This document shows, one piece after another, positions 5,474 to 42,883 of a DNA stretch of 45,256 bases; positions within the stretch are counted from its first letter, which is position 1, and each line of letters opens with the position of its first letter. This DNA is from Escherichia phage bob. Position numbers and translations under genes: made by a program. A model generated the notes under the pieces. It searched no databases, was not told the DNA's origin, and saw nothing but the letters and a program-made list of their open reading frames with translations. Where the stretch lies: sequence record NC_073072.1; one strand, 5' to 3'.

Positions 5474-5940
5474 AACTACTGATTTGTGATTTGGATGGCG
5501 TCATTAACGGTTCAAGCGATGCGCGTGCCGACCTGGTGCCAGGTATAAAAACCAAATCAACATTTTGGGCGAAGTGGCACAAAGCGCATGTACGCGAAGA
5601 CCTTAACATGGATATGCTGCCGCTGTTGAGCATGTATAAAGAGCAAGGCTTCGAGATCGCGTATCTGACAAACCGGCAGCGAGAATGCTGGGAGACTACC
5701 GTCGAGCAATTGGAAGTATTCCCCGTAGGCCGGTTGTTTATGCGCCACATGCTGGACGATACCCCGCCGCCAGTGTTTAAAGCGTGCGCCGTGTTCAAAA
5801 TGGTCTGCTATGCGGACGTATCGGAACTGGTCATCATTGAAGACTGTCCGAAGAACATCGCGGCCATTCGACGGGCGTGCAGCGATCTGGTCCCGAAAAT
5901 TTATGCGATAAACGTTGCAAAATTTACTTGCAACCAATAG
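5470..5940 (+). CDS. HAD-superfamily hydrolase (putative nucleotidase/phosphatase)
   Basis: N-terminal HAD motif I LICDLDGVI; 156 aa. Confidence 0.6.
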   Translation: MKLLICDLDGVINGSSDARADLVPGIKTKSTFWAKWHKAHVREDLNMDMLPLLSMYKEQGFEIAYLTNRQRECWETTVEQLEVFPVGRLFMRHMLDDTPPPVFKACAVFKMVCYADVSELVIIEDCPKNIAAIRRACSDLVPKIYAINVAKFTCNQ

Positions 5941-5950
5941 GTTGGTTGCA
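5929..5950. promoter_or_regulatory. perfect palindrome TGCAACCAA-tagg-TTGGTTGCA
   Basis: 9 bp inverted repeat with 4 bp spacer, overlapping stop codon of 5470..5940 and upstream of gene at 6000. Confidence 0.55.
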
Positions 5951-19555: not shown

Positions 19556-19745
19556 TTATTCAGTCTCAGACGAGGGGGGCCATTGACCCCCGTCTAGTCT
19601 GAAAGACTGGGGTGCTGTCCCGCTGTCCCGATCGGCTGAAAACCGCGGCAGCACTGGCGGGGACGGGGTGCTGTCCCGTTTTGTCCCGCCCCTTGTTTGT
19701 CCCGCTTTCTGTCCCGCTTACTTTATGCAATAAAACTGCATAGGT
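19556..19745. repeat. copy A of a ~180-190 bp dispersed element (G-rich hairpin plus GTCCCG iterons)
   Basis: First ~75 bp TTATTCAGTCTCAGACGAGGGGGGCCAtTGACCCCCGTCTAGTCTGAAAGACTGGGGTGCTGTCCCGCTGTCCCG near-identical to 35971-36045; both copies end TTTATGCA..TTGCATA. Confidence 0.8.
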
Positions 19746-19764
19746 ATGCACATTTACAGGGCGT

Positions 19765-19874
19765 GACAAAACGGGACGTCCCGCCTGTCCCGCTTTGAGT
19801 TTATGCAATGAAAGTGATTAGATATGCGGTTTTACAGAGGCGGGACAAAACGGGACGTCCCGCCTGTCCCGCTT
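19765..19874. repeat. two perfect 31 bp direct repeats each containing the 12 bp palindrome CGGGACGTCCCG
   Basis: GACAAAACGGGACGTCCCGCCTGTCCCGCTT at 19765-19795 and 19844-19874, inside a ~79 bp imperfect tandem unit. Confidence 0.8.
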
Positions 19875-38644: not shown

Positions 38645-38974
38645 TTACTTAGAAGTTTTATTATTGCGTACCCAGGAGCGCACTGTGCTCTGATTAATTC
38701 CGGTCAACTCGGCAATCATCGCCCAGGATTTGCCCTCGGCGCGCAAACGGATAACCTGTTTTTTGTATTCTTCCATTTCTTCATTGTGCTTTTGCAGCTT
38801 GCTTGCTGCCGTGCCGTTGAGCAATTCCAGCCTGGCGCGTAATTCTTTTTCGGTAAGTCGCAGACGTTCGATTTCAAATAGCACCGCACCCACGGCATCG
38901 GTATACGCCCAAGACCGGCTTGTCTCACTGCAAACAGTCTTAGTTAACATTTCGATTGCGTCGTCGATATTCAT
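38645..38974 (-). CDS. HTH DNA-binding protein (putative regulator)
   Basis: 109 aa; C-terminal KSWAMIAELTGINQSTVRSWV helix-turn-helix; GGAG RBS; first gene of the leftward early operon. Confidence 0.6.
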   Translation of the reverse strand: MNIDDAIEMLTKTVCSETSRSWAYTDAVGAVLFEIERLRLTEKELRARLELLNGTAASKLQKHNEEMEEYKKQVIRLRAEGKSWAMIAELTGINQSTVRSWVRNNKTSK

Positions 38975-39104
38975 TTTTCTGTCTCCGGTTGGTTAATGAC
39001 CAACGAAACTACACCTAAAACCGCAGGGTGTCAACTTCTTTGGAATATTGAAACGGGCGCGCACGCGTGTAATAATACTCCCGTCTCATTGTCTCTTATT
39101 GGTT

Positions 39105-39140
39105 AGCGCCGTCGCATTTTGCTTCGGCGCTTTTTTTTTT
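39105..39140 (+). terminator. hairpin plus T10 tract (terminator-like, or UP-element-like T-tract for the adjacent promoter)
   Basis: AGCGCCG-(13 nt loop)-CGGCGCT then T10 at 39131-39140, 12-21 bp upstream of the -35. Confidence 0.4.
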
Positions 39141-39151
39141 GAAATTAGTTG

Positions 39152-39181
39152 TTGACACCCATCCTGCAACCAATCTATTAT
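39152..39181 (+). promoter_or_regulatory. sigma70-type early promoter (TTGACA-18-TATTAT)
   Basis: Consensus -35 TTGACA at 39152-39157, -10 TATTAT at 39176-39181; a GCAACCAAT motif lies in the spacer. Confidence 0.6.
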
Positions 39182-39377
39182 TCACCCCGTCGACAGGATG
39201 CAGGACGCAAACTGGAGAGGGGCAACGCAGGGGCCGGATCGAAGTGTCAGGATTCCCAACCGTGATTATATAACCCGGTCCACTACCCGAACGGGAGAAC
39301 GCGCAACCGGGCAATATGTTAAGGCCACCGACGAAGTTAACTGCCGACACCTAAACTTAACCAATCGGAGATATACC

Positions 39378-39899
39378 ATGTTTGAGCAAATCGTAAACCT
39401 GATCACTCGCGGCGTAGTAGCACTGGAAACCATCGCTAAGCATTATGAAACCGTTGGCGCTGCCGTTGGTAAACAGGAAGATAAGAAGCCGTCTAAGGCG
39501 AAAAAAGAAGTTGTCGAAGATGACGACGATGAAGCTGAAGACGAAAAACCGGCTAAATCTAAAAAAGCACCGGCGAAAGGTAAGGCTAAAAAAGAAGTCG
39601 TAGAAGATGACGACGACGATGCCGAAGACGATGCCGAAGACGAAAAACCGGCTAAGTCTAAAAAAGCGAAAGGCAAAGGTAAGAAAGATGCCGATCCGCT
39701 GGCGGAGATGCGCGACGAAATCAAACAGTATGCCGCGATTATTGCGGGTGGTGATGACGACGACGCGAACGACGAATTCGACGACCTGCTGGAATCGTTC
39801 GAGATCAAATCAATCGCCAAGCTGGAAGATGACGACGTCGAAGACTTCCACAAAGAGCTAAAAGAAATCGTCGAAACCTATTTCGAACTGGAAGATTAA
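39378..39899 (+). CDS. highly acidic low-complexity repeat protein (first gene of rightward early operon)
   Basis: ATG 39378 with GGAG RBS; repeats KKEVVEDDDDEAEDEKPAKSKKA; an in-frame upstream ATG at 39198 is a possible alternative start. Confidence 0.6.
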   Translation: MFEQIVNLITRGVVALETIAKHYETVGAAVGKQEDKKPSKAKKEVVEDDDDEAEDEKPAKSKKAPAKGKAKKEVVEDDDDDAEDDAEDEKPAKSKKAKGKGKKDADPLAEMRDEIKQYAAIIAGGDDDDANDEFDDLLESFEIKSIAKLEDDDVEDFHKELKEIVETYFELED

Positions 39900-39947
39900 T
39901 ATATTCCGGCCCGCAGATTAGCGGGCCTCTTTTTAGAGGACGAGACA

Positions 39948-41775: not shown

Positions 41776-42010
41776 AGTATTTGCAATCTTATTGATGTTT
41801 GTTATCGGCGCGCTGGGCTTTATCCTGAATTGTGTGCAAGGCGTGTTAATGGTGGCGTGGATGGTTCGACATCCGACCCGCTGGCTGGATGACGGTTATA
41901 GCGAAGCTGCCGCCGATTGGGTGGAGAAGAACATCGACCGCCCGCCGTTAAGCTGGATCGAGAACGCCACCAACTACGTGACCAGAAATCTTTTTAATGA
42001 AAATGCTTGA
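41768..42010 (+). CDS. small membrane protein (80 aa)
   Basis: TMD FAILLMFVIGALGFIL; start overlaps upstream gene end. Confidence 0.5.
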   Translation: MNKVFAILLMFVIGALGFILNCVQGVLMVAWMVRHPTRWLDDGYSEAAADWVEKNIDRPPLSWIENATNYVTRNLFNENA

Positions 42011-42100
42011 CCGCTTAGGCGCAACCAAGTAGATTAGCAACCAAGCCGGACGGGGTGGCTTCCAATAACCCCGATACATGTGAAAATGAGGAATTGGAAA

Positions 42101-42883
42101 ATGGCTAAAGTCAACCTGAAAAATGTGCGCGTATGTTTCCTGAAAATTTGGGAACGTGATACCCCTAAACAGGATGGGCAAAAACCGGCATACCGTGCCG
42201 TGATTCTTCTTGATAAAGAAGATCCGCAGGTGGACAAAGTGGAAGAGGCAGCGCGCGCAGTGCTCACCGACAAGCTGAAGTCCGAGAAGAACGCCGATAA
42301 GTGGATGGACCGCCACTACGCCCAGGATTCGAAGGAATGCGCAGTTCGCGACGGTGACGAGCGCGACGAAGTGACCGAAGAATTCGAAGGCATGTTGTAT
42401 ATCAACGCCAAATCGTTCAAACAGCCTATCATTCAAACGTCACTCGGCGAGAAGCAGACTGAACAAGGTCTGACCATCGACGGCGACGAGATTGAAGGCC
42501 AGGAGATCTACTCCGGTTGTTATTGCAACGTGTCCCTTGATATTTGGGCATGGAACAATACCAACGGCAAGGGTCTCGGGGCTGGCTTGCTGGGTCTGCG
42601 ATTCCGTGAAGACGGCGAAGCCTTCGGAGGTGGCGGGTCTTCTTGCTCCGATGAAGACCTGGACAACGACGACGAAGACGAAGCACCGCGCAAGTCCAAA
42701 AAGTCAAAACGTCGTGATGTCGATGATGTAGATGACAAGCCGCGCAAGTCCAAGAAATCCAAGCGCCGCGATGACGACGACGATGAGGAAGATGAAAAAC
42801 CTCGCAAACGTCGTAAGCCACGCGATGACGAAGATGAGGACGACGACGAAGACGAAGCGCCACGTAAACGTCGCCGCCGTTAA
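42101..42883 (+). CDS. ssDNA-binding protein, T7 gp2.5-like (DUF2815-type), with charged repeat tail
   Basis: ATG 42101 with GAGGA RBS; MAKVNLKNVRVCF N-terminus; three C-terminal repeats DEAPRKSKKSKRRD. Confidence 0.65.
   Translation: MAKVNLKNVRVCFLKIWERDTPKQDGQKPAYRAVILLDKEDPQVDKVEEAARAVLTDKLKSEKNADKWMDRHYAQDSKECAVRDGDERDEVTEEFEGMLYINAKSFKQPIIQTSLGEKQTEQGLTIDGDEIEGQEIYSGCYCNVSLDIWAWNNTNGKGLGAGLLGLRFREDGEAFGGGGSSCSDEDLDNDDEDEAPRKSKKSKRRDVDDVDDKPRKSKKSKRRDDDDDEEDEKPRKRRKPRDDEDEDDDEDEAPRKRRRR

What the first reader, a model, noticed from the sequence alone, without database searches (positions are those of the whole stretch)
39378..39899. Highly acidic repeat protein as first gene behind the strongest early promoter
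A consensus TTGACA-18-TATTAT promoter (39152-39181), preceded by a T10 tract, drives a ~190 nt leader and then a 173 aa protein made largely of alternating Lys-rich and Asp/Glu-rich repeats (KKEVVEDDDDEAEDEKPAKSKKA, repeated) with a short structured N-terminus. First-expressed acidic proteins in phages are often host-takeover or anti-defence factors (DNA mimics), but this sequence is not recognisably Ocr- or ArdA-like, so the role is open.
Basis: partly seen in the sequence, partly recalled or inferred. Interest (0 to 1): 0.6.

Follow-up and report, generated by a model that had tools for sequence, protein, structure and literature searches.

The report
Acidic early protein behind structured leader RNA
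The gene is real and encodes an abundant, conserved coliphage protein of unknown function at the head of the DNA-replication genes, and its 190-base untranslated leader is a conserved folded RNA, absent from Rfam, that unrelated coliphages share.

Summary
The window is Escherichia phage mckay (Dhillonvirus). ORF 39378-39899 encodes a 173-aa protein (pI 4.4) behind the only 11/12 sigma-70 promoter match in the genome, and it contains two Lys-rich/acidic repeats.

The repeats are a dispensable tether whose length varies among relatives. The conserved parts are an N-terminal helix with a heptad pattern and an acidic C-terminal three-helix bundle, both under strong purifying selection. The gene keeps its place at the head of the operon (DUF2800 exonuclease, gp2.5-like SSB, PolA) in phage groups only 30-35% identical. 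Its EE09 ortholog is one of four phage proteins detected in infected cells.

No Ocr, ArdA or Gam homology or fold was found, and Dhillonviruses are reported as comparatively sensitive to type I/II restriction. My best guess, at low confidence, is an abundant oligomeric acidic decoy or adaptor acting on DNA-metabolism proteins.

The main new result is the leader. Positions 39189-39348 form a ~160-nt five-helix RNA: 95.9% of pair cells are paired and 22 of 32 pairs show compensatory changes. It has no Rfam match. It occurs once per genome in Dhillonvirus, Sortsnevirus-like, Drexlerviridae and Bas97 phages, always directly after an early promoter and before unrelated genes. Its function is unknown; I favour an RNA that acts on host machinery, such as an antiterminator.

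The parts
39106..39140 (+). Intrinsic-terminator hairpin (GCGCCG / CGGCGC) plus T10 tail, directly upstream of the promoter. It insulates the transcription unit from upstream transcription.
   Evidence: Sequence. My own terminator scan gives dG -14.3 kcal/mol. The same terminator-promoter-RNA layout occurs in Bas97, L017 and L020.
39152..39181 (+). Sigma-70-type promoter TTGACA-18-TATTAT. Its spacer carries the phage motif TGCAACCAAT (39165-39174).
   Evidence: It is the only 11/12 consensus match in the window. It is conserved in related Dhillonviruses with -10 variants TAATAT and TATCAT. The motif is counted.
39189..39348 (+). Structured leader RNA of about 160 nt. Helices: P1 39189-39196 / 39341-39348; P2 39199-39201 / 39207-39209 (loop AGGAC); P3 39222-39235 / 39323-39337; P4 lower 39267-39271 / 39314-39318; P4 upper 39274-39279 / 39306-39311; P5 39286-39288 / 39293-39295 (loop GAAC here, a GNRA tetraloop in most relatives).
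   Evidence: Covariance model R1, built from non-Dhillonvirus sequences only, hits window 39192-39345 at 112.6 bits, E = 3e-24. In one search, 95.9% of pair cells are paired (25-45% when partners are slid) and 22 of 32 pairs have changes on both sides. Explicit compensatory variants are listed. There is no Rfam match.
39349..39377 (+). Unstructured C/A-rich spacer (CTTAACCAATC) followed by the Shine-Dalgarno GGAG (39367-39370).
   Evidence: Sequence. Similar AACCAA(C/T)C spacers precede the different downstream genes in other phages.
39378..39470 (+). Codons 1-31: the conserved N-terminal helix (residues 2-27). Hydrophobic residues F2, V6, I9, V13, L16, A20 and Y23 fall on a 4-3-4-3 heptad pattern, so I infer an oligomerisation or docking helix.
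   Evidence: Nearly invariant in 23 relatives. R11, E17 and A20 are conserved in at least 90% of the wider family. AlphaFold2 predicts a helix at pLDDT ~72. pN/pS = 0.10. The heptad reading comes directly from the sequence.
39471..39692 (+). Codons 32-105: a disordered, blocky polyampholyte linker holding the two Lys-rich/acidic repeats. Its length varies among relatives.
   Evidence: pLDDT below 50 for residues 26-101. Ranges from nearly absent to about 70 aa among relatives. 65% of residues are charged, net -4. DNA tandem repeats at 39507-39544 and 39602-39643.
39693..39899 (+). Codons 106-173 plus the stop codon: the conserved acidic three-helix bundle (helices 107-124, 128-140, 151-169), net charge -20.
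39908..39935 (+). Intrinsic terminator directly after the gene: a stem of 7 G-C pairs, then TCTTTTT. No consensus promoter lies between it and the next genes (orf83, orf59, exonuclease).
   Evidence: The Jerseyvirus Ent1 record annotates a terminator at the equivalent position.

Best explanation
SHOWN
The locus is a self-contained early transcription unit of phage mckay: terminator, consensus sigma-70 promoter, a ~160-nt structured leader RNA, a 173-aa acidic protein, then a terminator.

The protein belongs to a small phage-only family (PHROG 3127) with a fixed three-part build: an N-terminal heptad-patterned helix, a charged disordered tether of variable length, and an acidic three-helix bundle. 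The gene is always the first one transcribed divergently from the primase-helicase side. It sits ahead of the DUF2800 PD-(D/E)XK exonuclease, the gp2.5-like SSB and PolA. An ortholog is abundant in infected cells and is not a virion protein.

INFERRED (protein)
The N-helix oligomerises the protein, so that several acidic bundles hang on flexible tethers. Strong early expression, with the gene's own downstream terminator, makes it a stoichiometric binder rather than an enzyme.

I commit to this mechanism: it is a multivalent acidic decoy (nucleic-acid-like or SSB-tail-like) that occupies a DNA-binding site on a host DNA-metabolism protein. My best single guess for the target is the RecBCD-class end nuclease. 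This would parallel lambda gam next to bet/exo and T7 gene 5.9 next to exonuclease gene 6. The decoy would protect the incoming linear genome and replication intermediates while the phage exonuclease/SSB/polymerase system starts up.

INFERRED (RNA)
The leader RNA is an independent, horizontally exchanged promoter-plus-RNA cassette. It closes the 5' end of the transcript in a helix (P1). I think it most likely binds host transcription or RNA-decay machinery, either letting RNA polymerase read through the terminator at 39908-39935 into the promoter-less exonuclease genes (put-like function) or stabilising the early mRNA.
For: Identity of the window: 100% match to phage mckay MN850629.

Protein family and architecture:
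- PHROG 3127, E = 4e-53.
- 104 close relatives and only 49 representatives at 50% identity among 1.84 billion proteins, all 115-212 aa with the same layout.
- AlphaFold2: helix 2-27, disordered 26-101, three helices 107-169 at pLDDT ~90.
- Purifying selection: pN/pS 0.10 for the N-helix and 0.033 for the C-domain.

Synteny: conserved with exonuclease, SSB and Pol in Dhillonvirus, Jerseyvirus, phiEap-2 and 41-kb IMG/VR phages at 30-35% identity.

Expression context:
- Best promoter in the window.
- Terminator directly after the gene here and in Ent1.
- EE09 CDS56 (= EE09_56, the ortholog) is one of only four phage proteins detected in infected cells, alongside the SSB, and is absent from the virion list (PMC10673088).

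Charge: net -25 overall, of which -20 lies in the 68-aa C-domain.

RNA:
- Full-length alignment to intergenic regions of unrelated phages.
- Covariance-model hit, E = 3e-24, one copy per genome.
- 95.9% paired, 22 of 32 pairs with compensatory changes, 0 of 500 shuffles reach the observed values, slid controls 25-45% paired.
- A GNRA-capped P5 hairpin, and P1 variants that differ in every lineage.
- Always directly after a promoter -10 element.
- No consensus promoter between terminator 39908-39935 and the exonuclease gene.
Against: Protein:
- No partner or target has been identified. No sequence or fold similarity to Gam, gp5.9, Abc2, Ocr or ArdA.
- Extreme acidity is not universal in the family. 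The borderline member P0143 has a near-neutral C-domain.
- The linkers also carry Lys/Arg-rich patches typical of nucleic-acid-binding tails. This fits a DNA-binding scaffold as well as a decoy.
- Conservation as a core gene of the replication module fits a replisome accessory equally well.
- The oligomeric state is inferred only from a heptad pattern; the N-helix pLDDT is just 72.

RNA:
- The single-sequence minimum free energy is no better than that of shuffles (z = +1.0).
- The alignment used for pair counting was fitted to the model, which biases the counts toward the structure.
- Only about six lineages exist, so the number of independent substitution events is limited.
- The cassette ends in a terminator in several phages. 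That also fits a simple autonomous unit with no antitermination.
- HK022 put RNA is about 70 nt with two stem-loops (PMC9378689), so the only resemblance is position.
Confidence: 0.3

Rival explanations
1. Replisome or recombination accessory (adaptor). The N-helix docks on one phage replication protein, such as the primase-helicase or PolA. The acidic bundle docks on another, such as the exonuclease or the gp2.5-like SSB. The tether then couples the two, much as the C-terminal domains of single-strand annealing proteins couple to an exonuclease or to SSB.
For: The gene is core and strictly syntenic with the primase-helicase, exonuclease, SSB and Pol module in phage groups only 30-35% identical. 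It is under strong purifying selection. It was co-detected with the SSB in infected cells. Two weak, independent pointers lead to the C-terminal domain of the staphylococcal phage 80alpha Sak annealase: profile against PDB E = 0.17, and Foldseek E = 1.5, with the lambda Red-beta C-terminal domain at E = 7. That Sak domain mediates coupling to SSB (PMC11846896).
Confidence: 0.25
2. Charged DNA/RNA-binding scaffold. The Lys/Arg-rich patches of the linker bind nucleic acid and the acidic blocks modulate that binding. The oligomer would then organise or condense phage or host DNA, acting like a histone-H1/HMG-type protein or a condensate-forming protein at the start of infection.
For: Every family member has a blocky polyampholyte linker with basic patches: KPAKSKKA and AKGKGKK here, RGRGRGR in P0148, KGKTTRGK in P0116. 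The linker is 65% charged and close to net neutral. The protein is abundant and non-virion.
Against: The linker is almost absent in natural variants such as P0092 (122 aa) and P0097 (115 aa), so it cannot carry the essential activity. The conserved parts are the helix and the acidic bundle, which would repel nucleic acid.
Confidence: 0.12
3. Ocr/ArdA-type anti-restriction DNA mimic, or another dedicated anti-defence factor.
For: The protein is very acidic, is the first gene behind the strongest early promoter, and is abundant early and intracellular. In the other phages the leader-RNA cassette precedes genes of unknown function, as is typical of early host-takeover regions.
Against: No Ocr or ArdA homology or fold. 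BASEL reports Dhillonvirus as comparatively sensitive to type I/II restriction-modification systems (PMC8594841). The gene is core and syntenic rather than patchy, and is under purifying rather than diversifying selection. It is not the known Dhillonvirus anti-Tmn gene (ORF35 of SM_S22; the ortholog there is CDS0050) and not the Avs2 trigger Ksap1 (74 aa, at a different locus).
Confidence: 0.08
4. For the leader alone: it is a riboswitch or an autoregulatory protein-binding leader that controls translation of the downstream gene, rather than a transcription or stability element.
For: The junction and loop sequences are highly conserved while the helices covary, which is the hallmark of ligand- or protein-binding RNAs. 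P5 has a GNRA tetraloop.
Against: No expression platform is visible. The 3' strand of P1 ends about 20-30 nt before the Shine-Dalgarno, and the intervening spacer is unstructured and C/A-rich in all lineages. The downstream genes are unrelated, which rules out autoregulation by one gene product. No Rfam riboswitch matches.
Confidence: 0.15

Closest known systems
T7 Ocr (gp0.3), the first-expressed acidic DNA mimic
   Same: It is the first gene behind strong early host-RNAP promoters after a long leader. It is very acidic, all-helical, abundant and acts stoichiometrically.
   Different: No sequence or fold similarity. Ocr is a compact dimer that mimics bent B-DNA, whereas this protein is a helix, a long disordered tether and a 65-aa three-helix bundle. 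Dhillonviruses are reported as comparatively sensitive to type I/II restriction. Here the gene is a core member of the replication module.
Lambda Gam and T7 gp5.9 (RecBCD inhibitors encoded next to the phage recombination exonuclease)
   Same: Small, acidic, all-alpha proteins that probably oligomerise through a long helix, encoded directly upstream of the phage exonuclease and annealing/SSB genes. The linear dsDNA phage has the same need to evade RecBCD.
   Different: No homology and no fold match. RecBCD binding is untested. The long polyampholyte tether has no counterpart in Gam or gp5.9.
Bacterial SSB architecture (oligomeric core, disordered linker, acidic tip)
   Same: An oligomerisation element joined by a variable-length disordered linker to an acidic interaction module, giving a multivalent hub for DNA-metabolism proteins.
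   Different: The order is reversed and there is no OB fold. The acidic module is a folded bundle rather than a short peptide tip. The DEFDDLLESF stretch lies inside helix 2 of the bundle and is not a free tail.
HK022 put RNAs (cis-acting processive antiterminator RNAs)
   Same: A structured RNA encoded directly after an early promoter (as putL is), in a phage that uses host RNA polymerase, with intrinsic terminators ahead of downstream genes that lack promoters.
   Different: put is about 70 nt with two stem-loops (PMC9378689). This RNA is about 160 nt with five helices, a GNRA hairpin and a 55-nt invariant core. No sequence relationship could be tested, and there is one copy per genome rather than two. 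Function is untested.
Phage 'moron'-type autonomous transcription units
   Same: A terminator-promoter-gene-terminator cassette. The promoter-plus-RNA part is exchanged horizontally between unrelated phages and placed in front of unrelated genes.
   Different: Here the mobile part is the promoter plus a structured RNA, not the protein gene. The protein gene is itself a conserved core gene.

Membership tests
PHROG 3127 (phage protein family of unknown function) | Full-length match to the family profile | tested here: met
   E = 3.8e-53, protein residues 1-173 against profile positions 1-178 of 178
Ocr (T7 gp0.3) / ArdA anti-restriction DNA mimics | Sequence membership in the Ocr or ArdA families | tested here: not met
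   No Pfam hit for the protein or for any of 41 family members. No PDB sequence hit.
Ocr (T7 gp0.3) / ArdA anti-restriction DNA mimics | A compact fold that displays a DNA-like array of carboxylates and is structurally similar to Ocr or ArdA | tested here: not met
Ocr (T7 gp0.3) / ArdA anti-restriction DNA mimics | Protects the phage from type I restriction-modification | not testable with these tools
   Indirect evidence only: BASEL describes Dhillonvirus as comparatively sensitive to type I/II restriction-modification systems (PMC8594841).
RecBCD inhibitors (lambda Gam, T7 gp5.9, P22 Abc2) | Sequence or structural homology to a known inhibitor | tested here: not met
RecBCD inhibitors (lambda Gam, T7 gp5.9, P22 Abc2) | Encoded next to the phage recombination exonuclease genes | tested here: met
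   The gene lies upstream of the DUF2800 PD-(D/E)XK exonuclease in all lineages examined. This is an analogy, not proof.
RecBCD inhibitors (lambda Gam, T7 gp5.9, P22 Abc2) | Binds and inhibits RecBCD | not testable with these tools
   Needs biochemistry or genetics.
C-terminal partner-binding domains of single-strand annealing proteins (80alpha Sak, lambda Red-beta) | Significant sequence or fold similarity of the three-helix domain | tested here: inconclusive
HK022 put-type antiterminator RNA | Encoded directly downstream of an early promoter, on a transcript that contains terminators | tested here: met
   P1 starts 0-2 nt after the predicted transcription start. A terminator lies at 39908-39935 with no promoter before the next genes.
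HK022 put-type antiterminator RNA | About 70 nt, two stem-loops forming a V shape | tested here: not met
   About 160 nt with five helices, including a long-range P1 and P3. The put description comes from PMC9378689.
HK022 put-type antiterminator RNA | Makes RNA polymerase resistant to termination in cis | not testable with these tools
   Needs read-through reporters or Term-seq.
Any Rfam 15 family | Covariance-model match | tested here: not met
   No match at gathering threshold in the whole window. No match at E up to 10 within the element for three lineages.
Riboswitch (generic) | A conserved aptamer core together with an expression platform that overlaps a terminator or the Shine-Dalgarno | tested here: inconclusive
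   A conserved core with covarying helices is present. No expression platform was found, and an unstructured spacer of 20-30 nt lies before the Shine-Dalgarno.

The most novel reading that the evidence does not exclude
The ~160-nt leader is a new class of structured RNA that virulent coliphages exchange horizontally as a promoter-plus-RNA cassette. It would act directly on conserved host machinery: making RNA polymerase resistant to terminators without any protein factor, or blocking or decoying an RNA-decay or defence enzyme. The protein behind it in Dhillonviruses would be a new type of oligomeric, tethered acidic decoy that neutralises a host DNA-end or DNA-binding enzyme at the onset of replication.
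Probability: 0.3. Interest if true: 0.8.

Novelty: new variant of a known kind. Interest (0 to 1): 0.6.

Why it matters
Dhillonviruses and T1-like phages are among the most commonly isolated coliphages. They are used in therapy cocktails and in the BASEL collection, yet their early gene expression is essentially unstudied.

A ~160-nt RNA with a 55-nt invariant core sits at the 5' end of the earliest transcripts in four unrelated phage lineages. That points to a shared dependence on a host factor. If the factor is RNA polymerase, this would be only the second kind of protein-independent antiterminator RNA known in phages. It would also be a compact, portable part for synthetic biology.

The protein is one of the most abundant phage products in infected cells and a core gene of a widespread replication module (DUF2800 exonuclease, gp2.5-like SSB, PolA). 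Finding its partner would therefore fill a gap in how a large group of siphoviruses start replication or evade host nucleases.

On the practical side, many GenBank records mis-annotate the start codon and translate part of the RNA as protein.

Tried and rejected
1. Long ORF from ATG 39198 (233 aa, as in many GenBank records). Rejected: the extension lies inside the RNA, is closed by stop codons in 5 of 18 related loci, and the N-terminus MFEQ is invariant.

2. Identity with known Dhillonvirus factors. It is not Ksap1, which is 74 aa and lies between methyltransferase and phosphatase genes (PMC11564622). It is not anti-Tmn, which is ORF35 of SM_S22 with a beta-sheet C-terminus, while the ortholog there is CDS0050 (PMC11846954). 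The RAZR, Borvo and Retron-Eco8 triggers in SECphi18 are the portal, polymerase and SSB.

3. Weak Pfam hits BUD22 and DUF6669 (E = 0.02-0.06). They are not reproduced in any of 41 family members and reflect low-complexity sequence.

4. 'DNA recombination nuclease inhibitor gamma'. Some records use this name, but for the neighbouring 109-aa HTH gene, not this one. Pfam gives that gene only HTH / sigma-70 region-4-like hits.

5. Leader as a CsrA sponge. The P2 loop resembles the CsrA motif, but GGA is not enriched: 7 observed against 5.9 ± 1.6 in shuffles.

6. Thermodynamic test of the leader alone: z = +1.0, uninformative. RNAalifold on plain MAFFT alignments recovered only part of the structure, because P1 shifts register between lineages. 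A hand-built structure plus a covariance model was needed.

7. Host origin of the RNA. No copy in 5,426 complete E. coli genomes. In the species-representative genome collection the only copy is on a phage-like contig inside a MAG.

8. A second AlphaFold2 model, of a short-linker homolog, was poorer (pLDDT 65) and was not used.

9. The search for related loci with the wide family alignment failed because no stretch was conserved enough. P0116 and P0148 have no relatives in the phage collections.

10. Retron Ec48 as an indirect test of RecBCD inhibition by Dhillonviruses. The text available does not say whether Ec48 protects against SECphi4, SECphi6 or SECphi18.
Full report
IDENTITY AND OBSERVATION

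The window is Escherichia phage mckay (MN850629.1, genus Dhillonvirus); the intergenic query matched at 100% identity. About 170 related phage records share the region at 90-95% identity.

The ATG is at 39378 and the stop codon at 39897-39899. The product is 173 aa, and a GGAG Shine-Dalgarno lies 7 nt upstream.

The promoter TTGACA-18-TATTAT at 39152-39181 matches 11 of 12 consensus positions. It is the only such match in the whole 45-kb window; all others are 10/12 or lower. The total number of promoter-like hits equals the expectation from shuffles, so 'strongest' rests on consensus match only.

The T10 tract (39131-39140) is the tail of a G+C-rich hairpin (39106-39130), which makes it an intrinsic terminator that insulates the unit from upstream. 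A second strong terminator follows the gene at 39908-39935.

The protein has pI 4.41, 55 Asp+Glu, 30 Lys+Arg and a net charge of -25. It contains two copies of KAKKEVVEDDDD and of AEDEKPAKSKKA.

WHICH START CODON

Many GenBank records annotate a 207-239-aa product starting at an upstream in-frame ATG, equivalent to 39198. That extension is not coding, for three reasons:
- The N-terminus MFEQI is invariant in 23 of 23 relatives.
- In 5 of 18 Dhillonvirus loci the upstream frame is closed by a stop codon within 1-12 codons of the MFEQ ATG.
- The upstream ATG lies inside a conserved RNA element that, in other phages, sits in front of entirely different genes (see below).

ANATOMY OF THE PROTEIN

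Alignment of 23 relatives and of 41 representatives of the wider family shows a fixed three-part build.
1. A nearly invariant N-terminal segment. AlphaFold2 predicts a single helix at residues 2-27 with pLDDT ~72. Its hydrophobic residues (F2, V6, I9, V13, L16, A20, Y23) follow a 4-3-4-3 heptad spacing. That is my reading of the sequence, and it suggests a coiled-coil or docking helix.
2. A disordered linker, pLDDT below 50 for residues 26-101. It contains the repeats and ranges from nearly absent to about 70 residues among close relatives; total protein length ranges from 115 to 181 aa. It is 65% charged but close to net neutral, at -4.
3. A conserved C-terminal three-helix bundle, residues 107-169, pLDDT ~90. 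It carries -20 of the net charge.

Both structured parts are under strong purifying selection, with pN/pS of 0.10 and 0.033.

HOMOLOGY AND FOLD

The protein belongs to PHROG 3127, a family of unknown function (E = 4e-53). No Pfam family matches it or any of 41 family members.

An exhaustive profile search of 1.84 billion representative proteins found only 49 relatives. All are 115-212 aa with the same layout, and a few have a duplicated C-domain.

One weak lead appeared twice: the C-terminal domain of the 80alpha Sak annealase, with profile E = 0.17 and Foldseek E = 1.5. Red-beta's C-terminal domain scored E = 7. The Sak domain couples the annealase to SSB (PMC11846896). The similarity is below significance, and the Sak domain binds an acidic tail whereas this domain is itself acidic.

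BFVD structural matches extend the family to Edwardsiella phage eiAU gp46, Salmonella phage St162 and the MB78 '13.88 kDa late protein'.

GENOMIC CONTEXT

The gene has the same position in every lineage examined. It is the first rightward gene, divergent from the HTH gene and/or primase-helicase. After it come a small conserved ORF (orf83), the DUF2800 PD-(D/E)XK exonuclease, a gp2.5-like SSB and PolA.

This holds in the following lineages, although the proteins are only 30-35% identical:
- Dhillonvirus
- Jerseyvirus Ent1, where a terminator is also annotated directly after the gene
- phiEap-2
- a 41-kb IMG/VR phage lineage

The gene is therefore a core member of the replication/recombination module and not a patchy accessory gene.

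EXPERIMENTAL EVIDENCE FROM THE LITERATURE

In a proteomic study of Dhillonvirus EE09, only four phage proteins were detected in infected cells at 25 min: CDS29, CDS40, CDS56 and CDS61. CDS56 is described as lying near the 'transposase' gene (PMC10673088). In the EE09 record, EE09_56 is the ortholog of this gene, EE09_54 is the 'putative transposase' HTH gene, and EE09_61 is the gp2.5-like SSB. CDS56 is not among the 24 proteins found in virion lysates. The protein is therefore expressed, abundant and intracellular.

It is not either of the characterised Dhillonvirus immune-related proteins:
- Ksap1 is 74 aa and is encoded elsewhere in the genome (PMC11564622).
- Anti-Tmn is ORF35 of SM_S22 and has a different fold (PMC11846954).

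The BASEL study describes Dhillonvirus phages as comparatively sensitive to type I and II restriction-modification systems (PMC8594841). This argues against an Ocr-type function.

THE LEADER IS A CONSERVED STRUCTURED RNA

A sensitive BLAST of the intergenic region found that part of the leader is about 90% identical to unannotated intergenic DNA in unrelated phages. Full alignment showed that the whole leader, from the promoter -10 to just before the ribosome-binding site, is shared with these phages:
- Hanrivervirus slyngel and other Drexlerviridae (tunus, swan01, JK16, KMI8)
- Sortsnevirus sortkaff and its relatives (Lumpael, Arya, PT1)
- the unclassified phage HeidiAbel_Bas97

The element always has the same orientation as the flanking genes. 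It always follows a promoter directly, and it precedes non-homologous genes of unknown function.

Scans of IMG/VR, of metagenomes and of one genome per prokaryotic species added variants, all on phage-like contigs. No copy exists in 5,426 complete E. coli genomes.

Rfam 15 has no match in three lineages, even at E up to 10. The literature search found no paper on a phage RNA that contains its core sequence strings.

STRUCTURE OF THE RNA

Sorting the sequences around the invariant blocks and folding the variable segments reveals five helices. Window coordinates for each helix are given under 'parts'.
- P1 pairs the first nucleotides of the transcript with the segment just after CCGACGAAG. Its sequence differs in every lineage: GUCGACAG/CUGCCGAC, GGGCGGCG/CGCCGCCC, GACGGGC/GCCCGUC, AGACGG/CCGUCU, UGAGGCG/CGCCUUA.
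- P2 is a short hairpin with an (A)GGA loop.
- P3 is a long-range helix between two invariant blocks. It shows only wobble-compatible changes.
- P4 is a two-part helix with at least nine different Watson-Crick versions of its upper part. Three of these occur within Dhillonvirus alone: CCCGG/CCGGG, CCAGG/CCUGG and CCUGG/CCAGG.
- P5 is a 3-bp hairpin (CCC/GGG, GCC/GGC or CCG/CGG) capped by GAAA or GCAA. In mckay the loop is GAAC.

A covariance model built only from non-Dhillonvirus sequences finds the window element at 39192-39345 (112.6 bits, E = 3e-24). It finds exactly one copy in each phage and none in the Jerseyvirus or phiEap-2 loci.

On the resulting alignment, 95.9% of pair cells are standard pairs, against 25-45% when partners are slid by 1-3 columns. 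Twenty-two of 32 pairs have changes on both sides. The covariation score is 0.528 against at most 0.088 for slid partners, and no shuffle out of 500 reaches the observed values.

Three caveats apply. The alignment was fitted to the model. Only about six lineages exist. The single-sequence folding energy is unremarkable.

THE RNA AND THE PROTEIN ARE INDEPENDENT MODULES

Relatives of the protein in Jerseyvirus and in the 41-kb phages have short leaders without the RNA. One 41-kb contig carries the RNA at a different locus, in front of a different gene (L023 against L059).

HOW IT MOST LIKELY WORKS

Shown: the unit is terminator, consensus promoter, 5'-closed structured RNA, C/A-rich spacer with Shine-Dalgarno, acidic protein gene, terminator. 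No consensus promoter lies between the second terminator and orf83, orf59 and the exonuclease gene.

Inferred for the protein: the strong promoter and the gene's own terminator give high, immediate expression of a stoichiometric binder. The heptad helix makes it oligomeric, and the tethers present several acidic bundles. I favour a multivalent acidic decoy for a host DNA-binding enzyme, with RecBCD as the best single guess. The reasoning is the positional analogy with gam-bet-exo and with T7 5.9-6, plus the phage's need to protect linear DNA. Confidence is about 0.3.

A replisome or recombination adaptor is nearly as likely (0.25). A nucleic-acid-binding scaffold (0.12) and an Ocr-like anti-restriction factor (0.08) are less likely.

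Inferred for the RNA: the invariant 55-nt core and its horizontal spread among unrelated virulent coliphages suggest that it binds a conserved host machine. Its position right at the transcription start, together with terminators ahead of promoter-less genes, fits a put-like antiterminator. The flush 5' helix would also protect the mRNA from 5'-end-dependent decay. A riboswitch is less likely because no expression platform is visible.

NOVELTY AND VERDICT

The protein family is catalogued but uncharacterised, and its architecture has no described counterpart. The RNA appears to be undescribed: it is absent from Rfam 15, and I found no literature on it.

Both parts map onto known kinds of phage early functions, namely acidic decoy or adaptor proteins and cis-acting leader RNAs. 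I therefore rate the finding as a new variant of a known kind, with interest 0.6. The RNA carries most of that interest.

Noticed in passing
window 1069, 1081, 4005, 4022, 5929, 5941, 9348, 25468, 25482, 32716, 32739, 35247, 35780, 35811, 35902, 36218, 36272, 39165: The 10-mer TGCAACCAAT occurs 18 times at up to 1 mismatch (11 exact), against 3.3 ± 1.8 expected and 0 of 100 shuffles. The sites lie in intergenic or promoter regions, often as tandem pairs, and are directly followed by a -10-like hexamer. One copy sits in the spacer of the acidic-gene promoter. This is a candidate phage-specific promoter or operator motif.
   Followed up: partly
window 38645-38974 (-): The divergent 109-aa HTH protein is annotated in different records as transposase, resolvase or 'DNA recombination nuclease inhibitor gamma'. 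Pfam gives only HTH_23 / Sigma70_r4_2-type hits, with no support for Gam. It is a candidate binder of the TGCAACCAAT motif.
   Followed up: partly
window 39048-39140 (+): A second promoter-like site (TTGAAA-17-AATAAT with an extended-10 TG, 10/12) lies about 55-60 nt upstream of the terminator hairpin and T10 tract at 39106-39140. Together they could produce a tiny terminated transcript upstream of the main promoter and opposite the start region of the HTH gene. Rfam shows only non-significant, terminator-driven sRNA similarities there.
   Followed up: partly
window 5929-5950: A perfect 22-bp palindrome, TGCAACCAATAGGTTGGTTGCA, made of two inverted copies of the motif and overlapping a promoter-like site (TTGCAA-18-TATATT). 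It looks like an operator.
   Followed up: no
window 19660-19871 (+): Three G+C-rich hairpins lie in a gene-poor stretch. Two of them are identical copies of CGGGACGTCCCGCCTGTCCCG, at 19772-19792 and 19851-19871. They appeared in the terminator scan but lack good T tails. They remain unexplained repeats.
   Followed up: no
L001:3299-3991, L002:3248-3991, L064:3499-4197 (GenBank records of ZCEC11, StarDew, EE09): Public annotations start this gene 50-80 codons too early and so translate most of the structured leader RNA as protein. Protein clusters of 207-239 aa in the databases carry this artefact.
   Followed up: yes
L023 and L059 (the same IMG/VR contig 3300045988_045281, 41 kb): One phage carries both the leader RNA, in front of a gene that starts MKRITAIAITLAAVLG (signal-peptide-like), and a homolog of the acidic protein with a short leader lacking the RNA. 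The two are at different loci. This shows that the RNA cassette moves independently of the protein gene.
   Followed up: partly
window 42007-42035 and 42080-42883 (+): The gp2.5-like SSB gene (267 aa) has its own promoter-like site (TTGACC-17-TAGATT). This agrees with a report that Retron-Eco8 escape mutants of SECphi4, SECphi6 and SECphi18 map to the promoter or coding sequence of this SSB (bioRxiv 10.1101/2022.08.27.505566).
   Followed up: no
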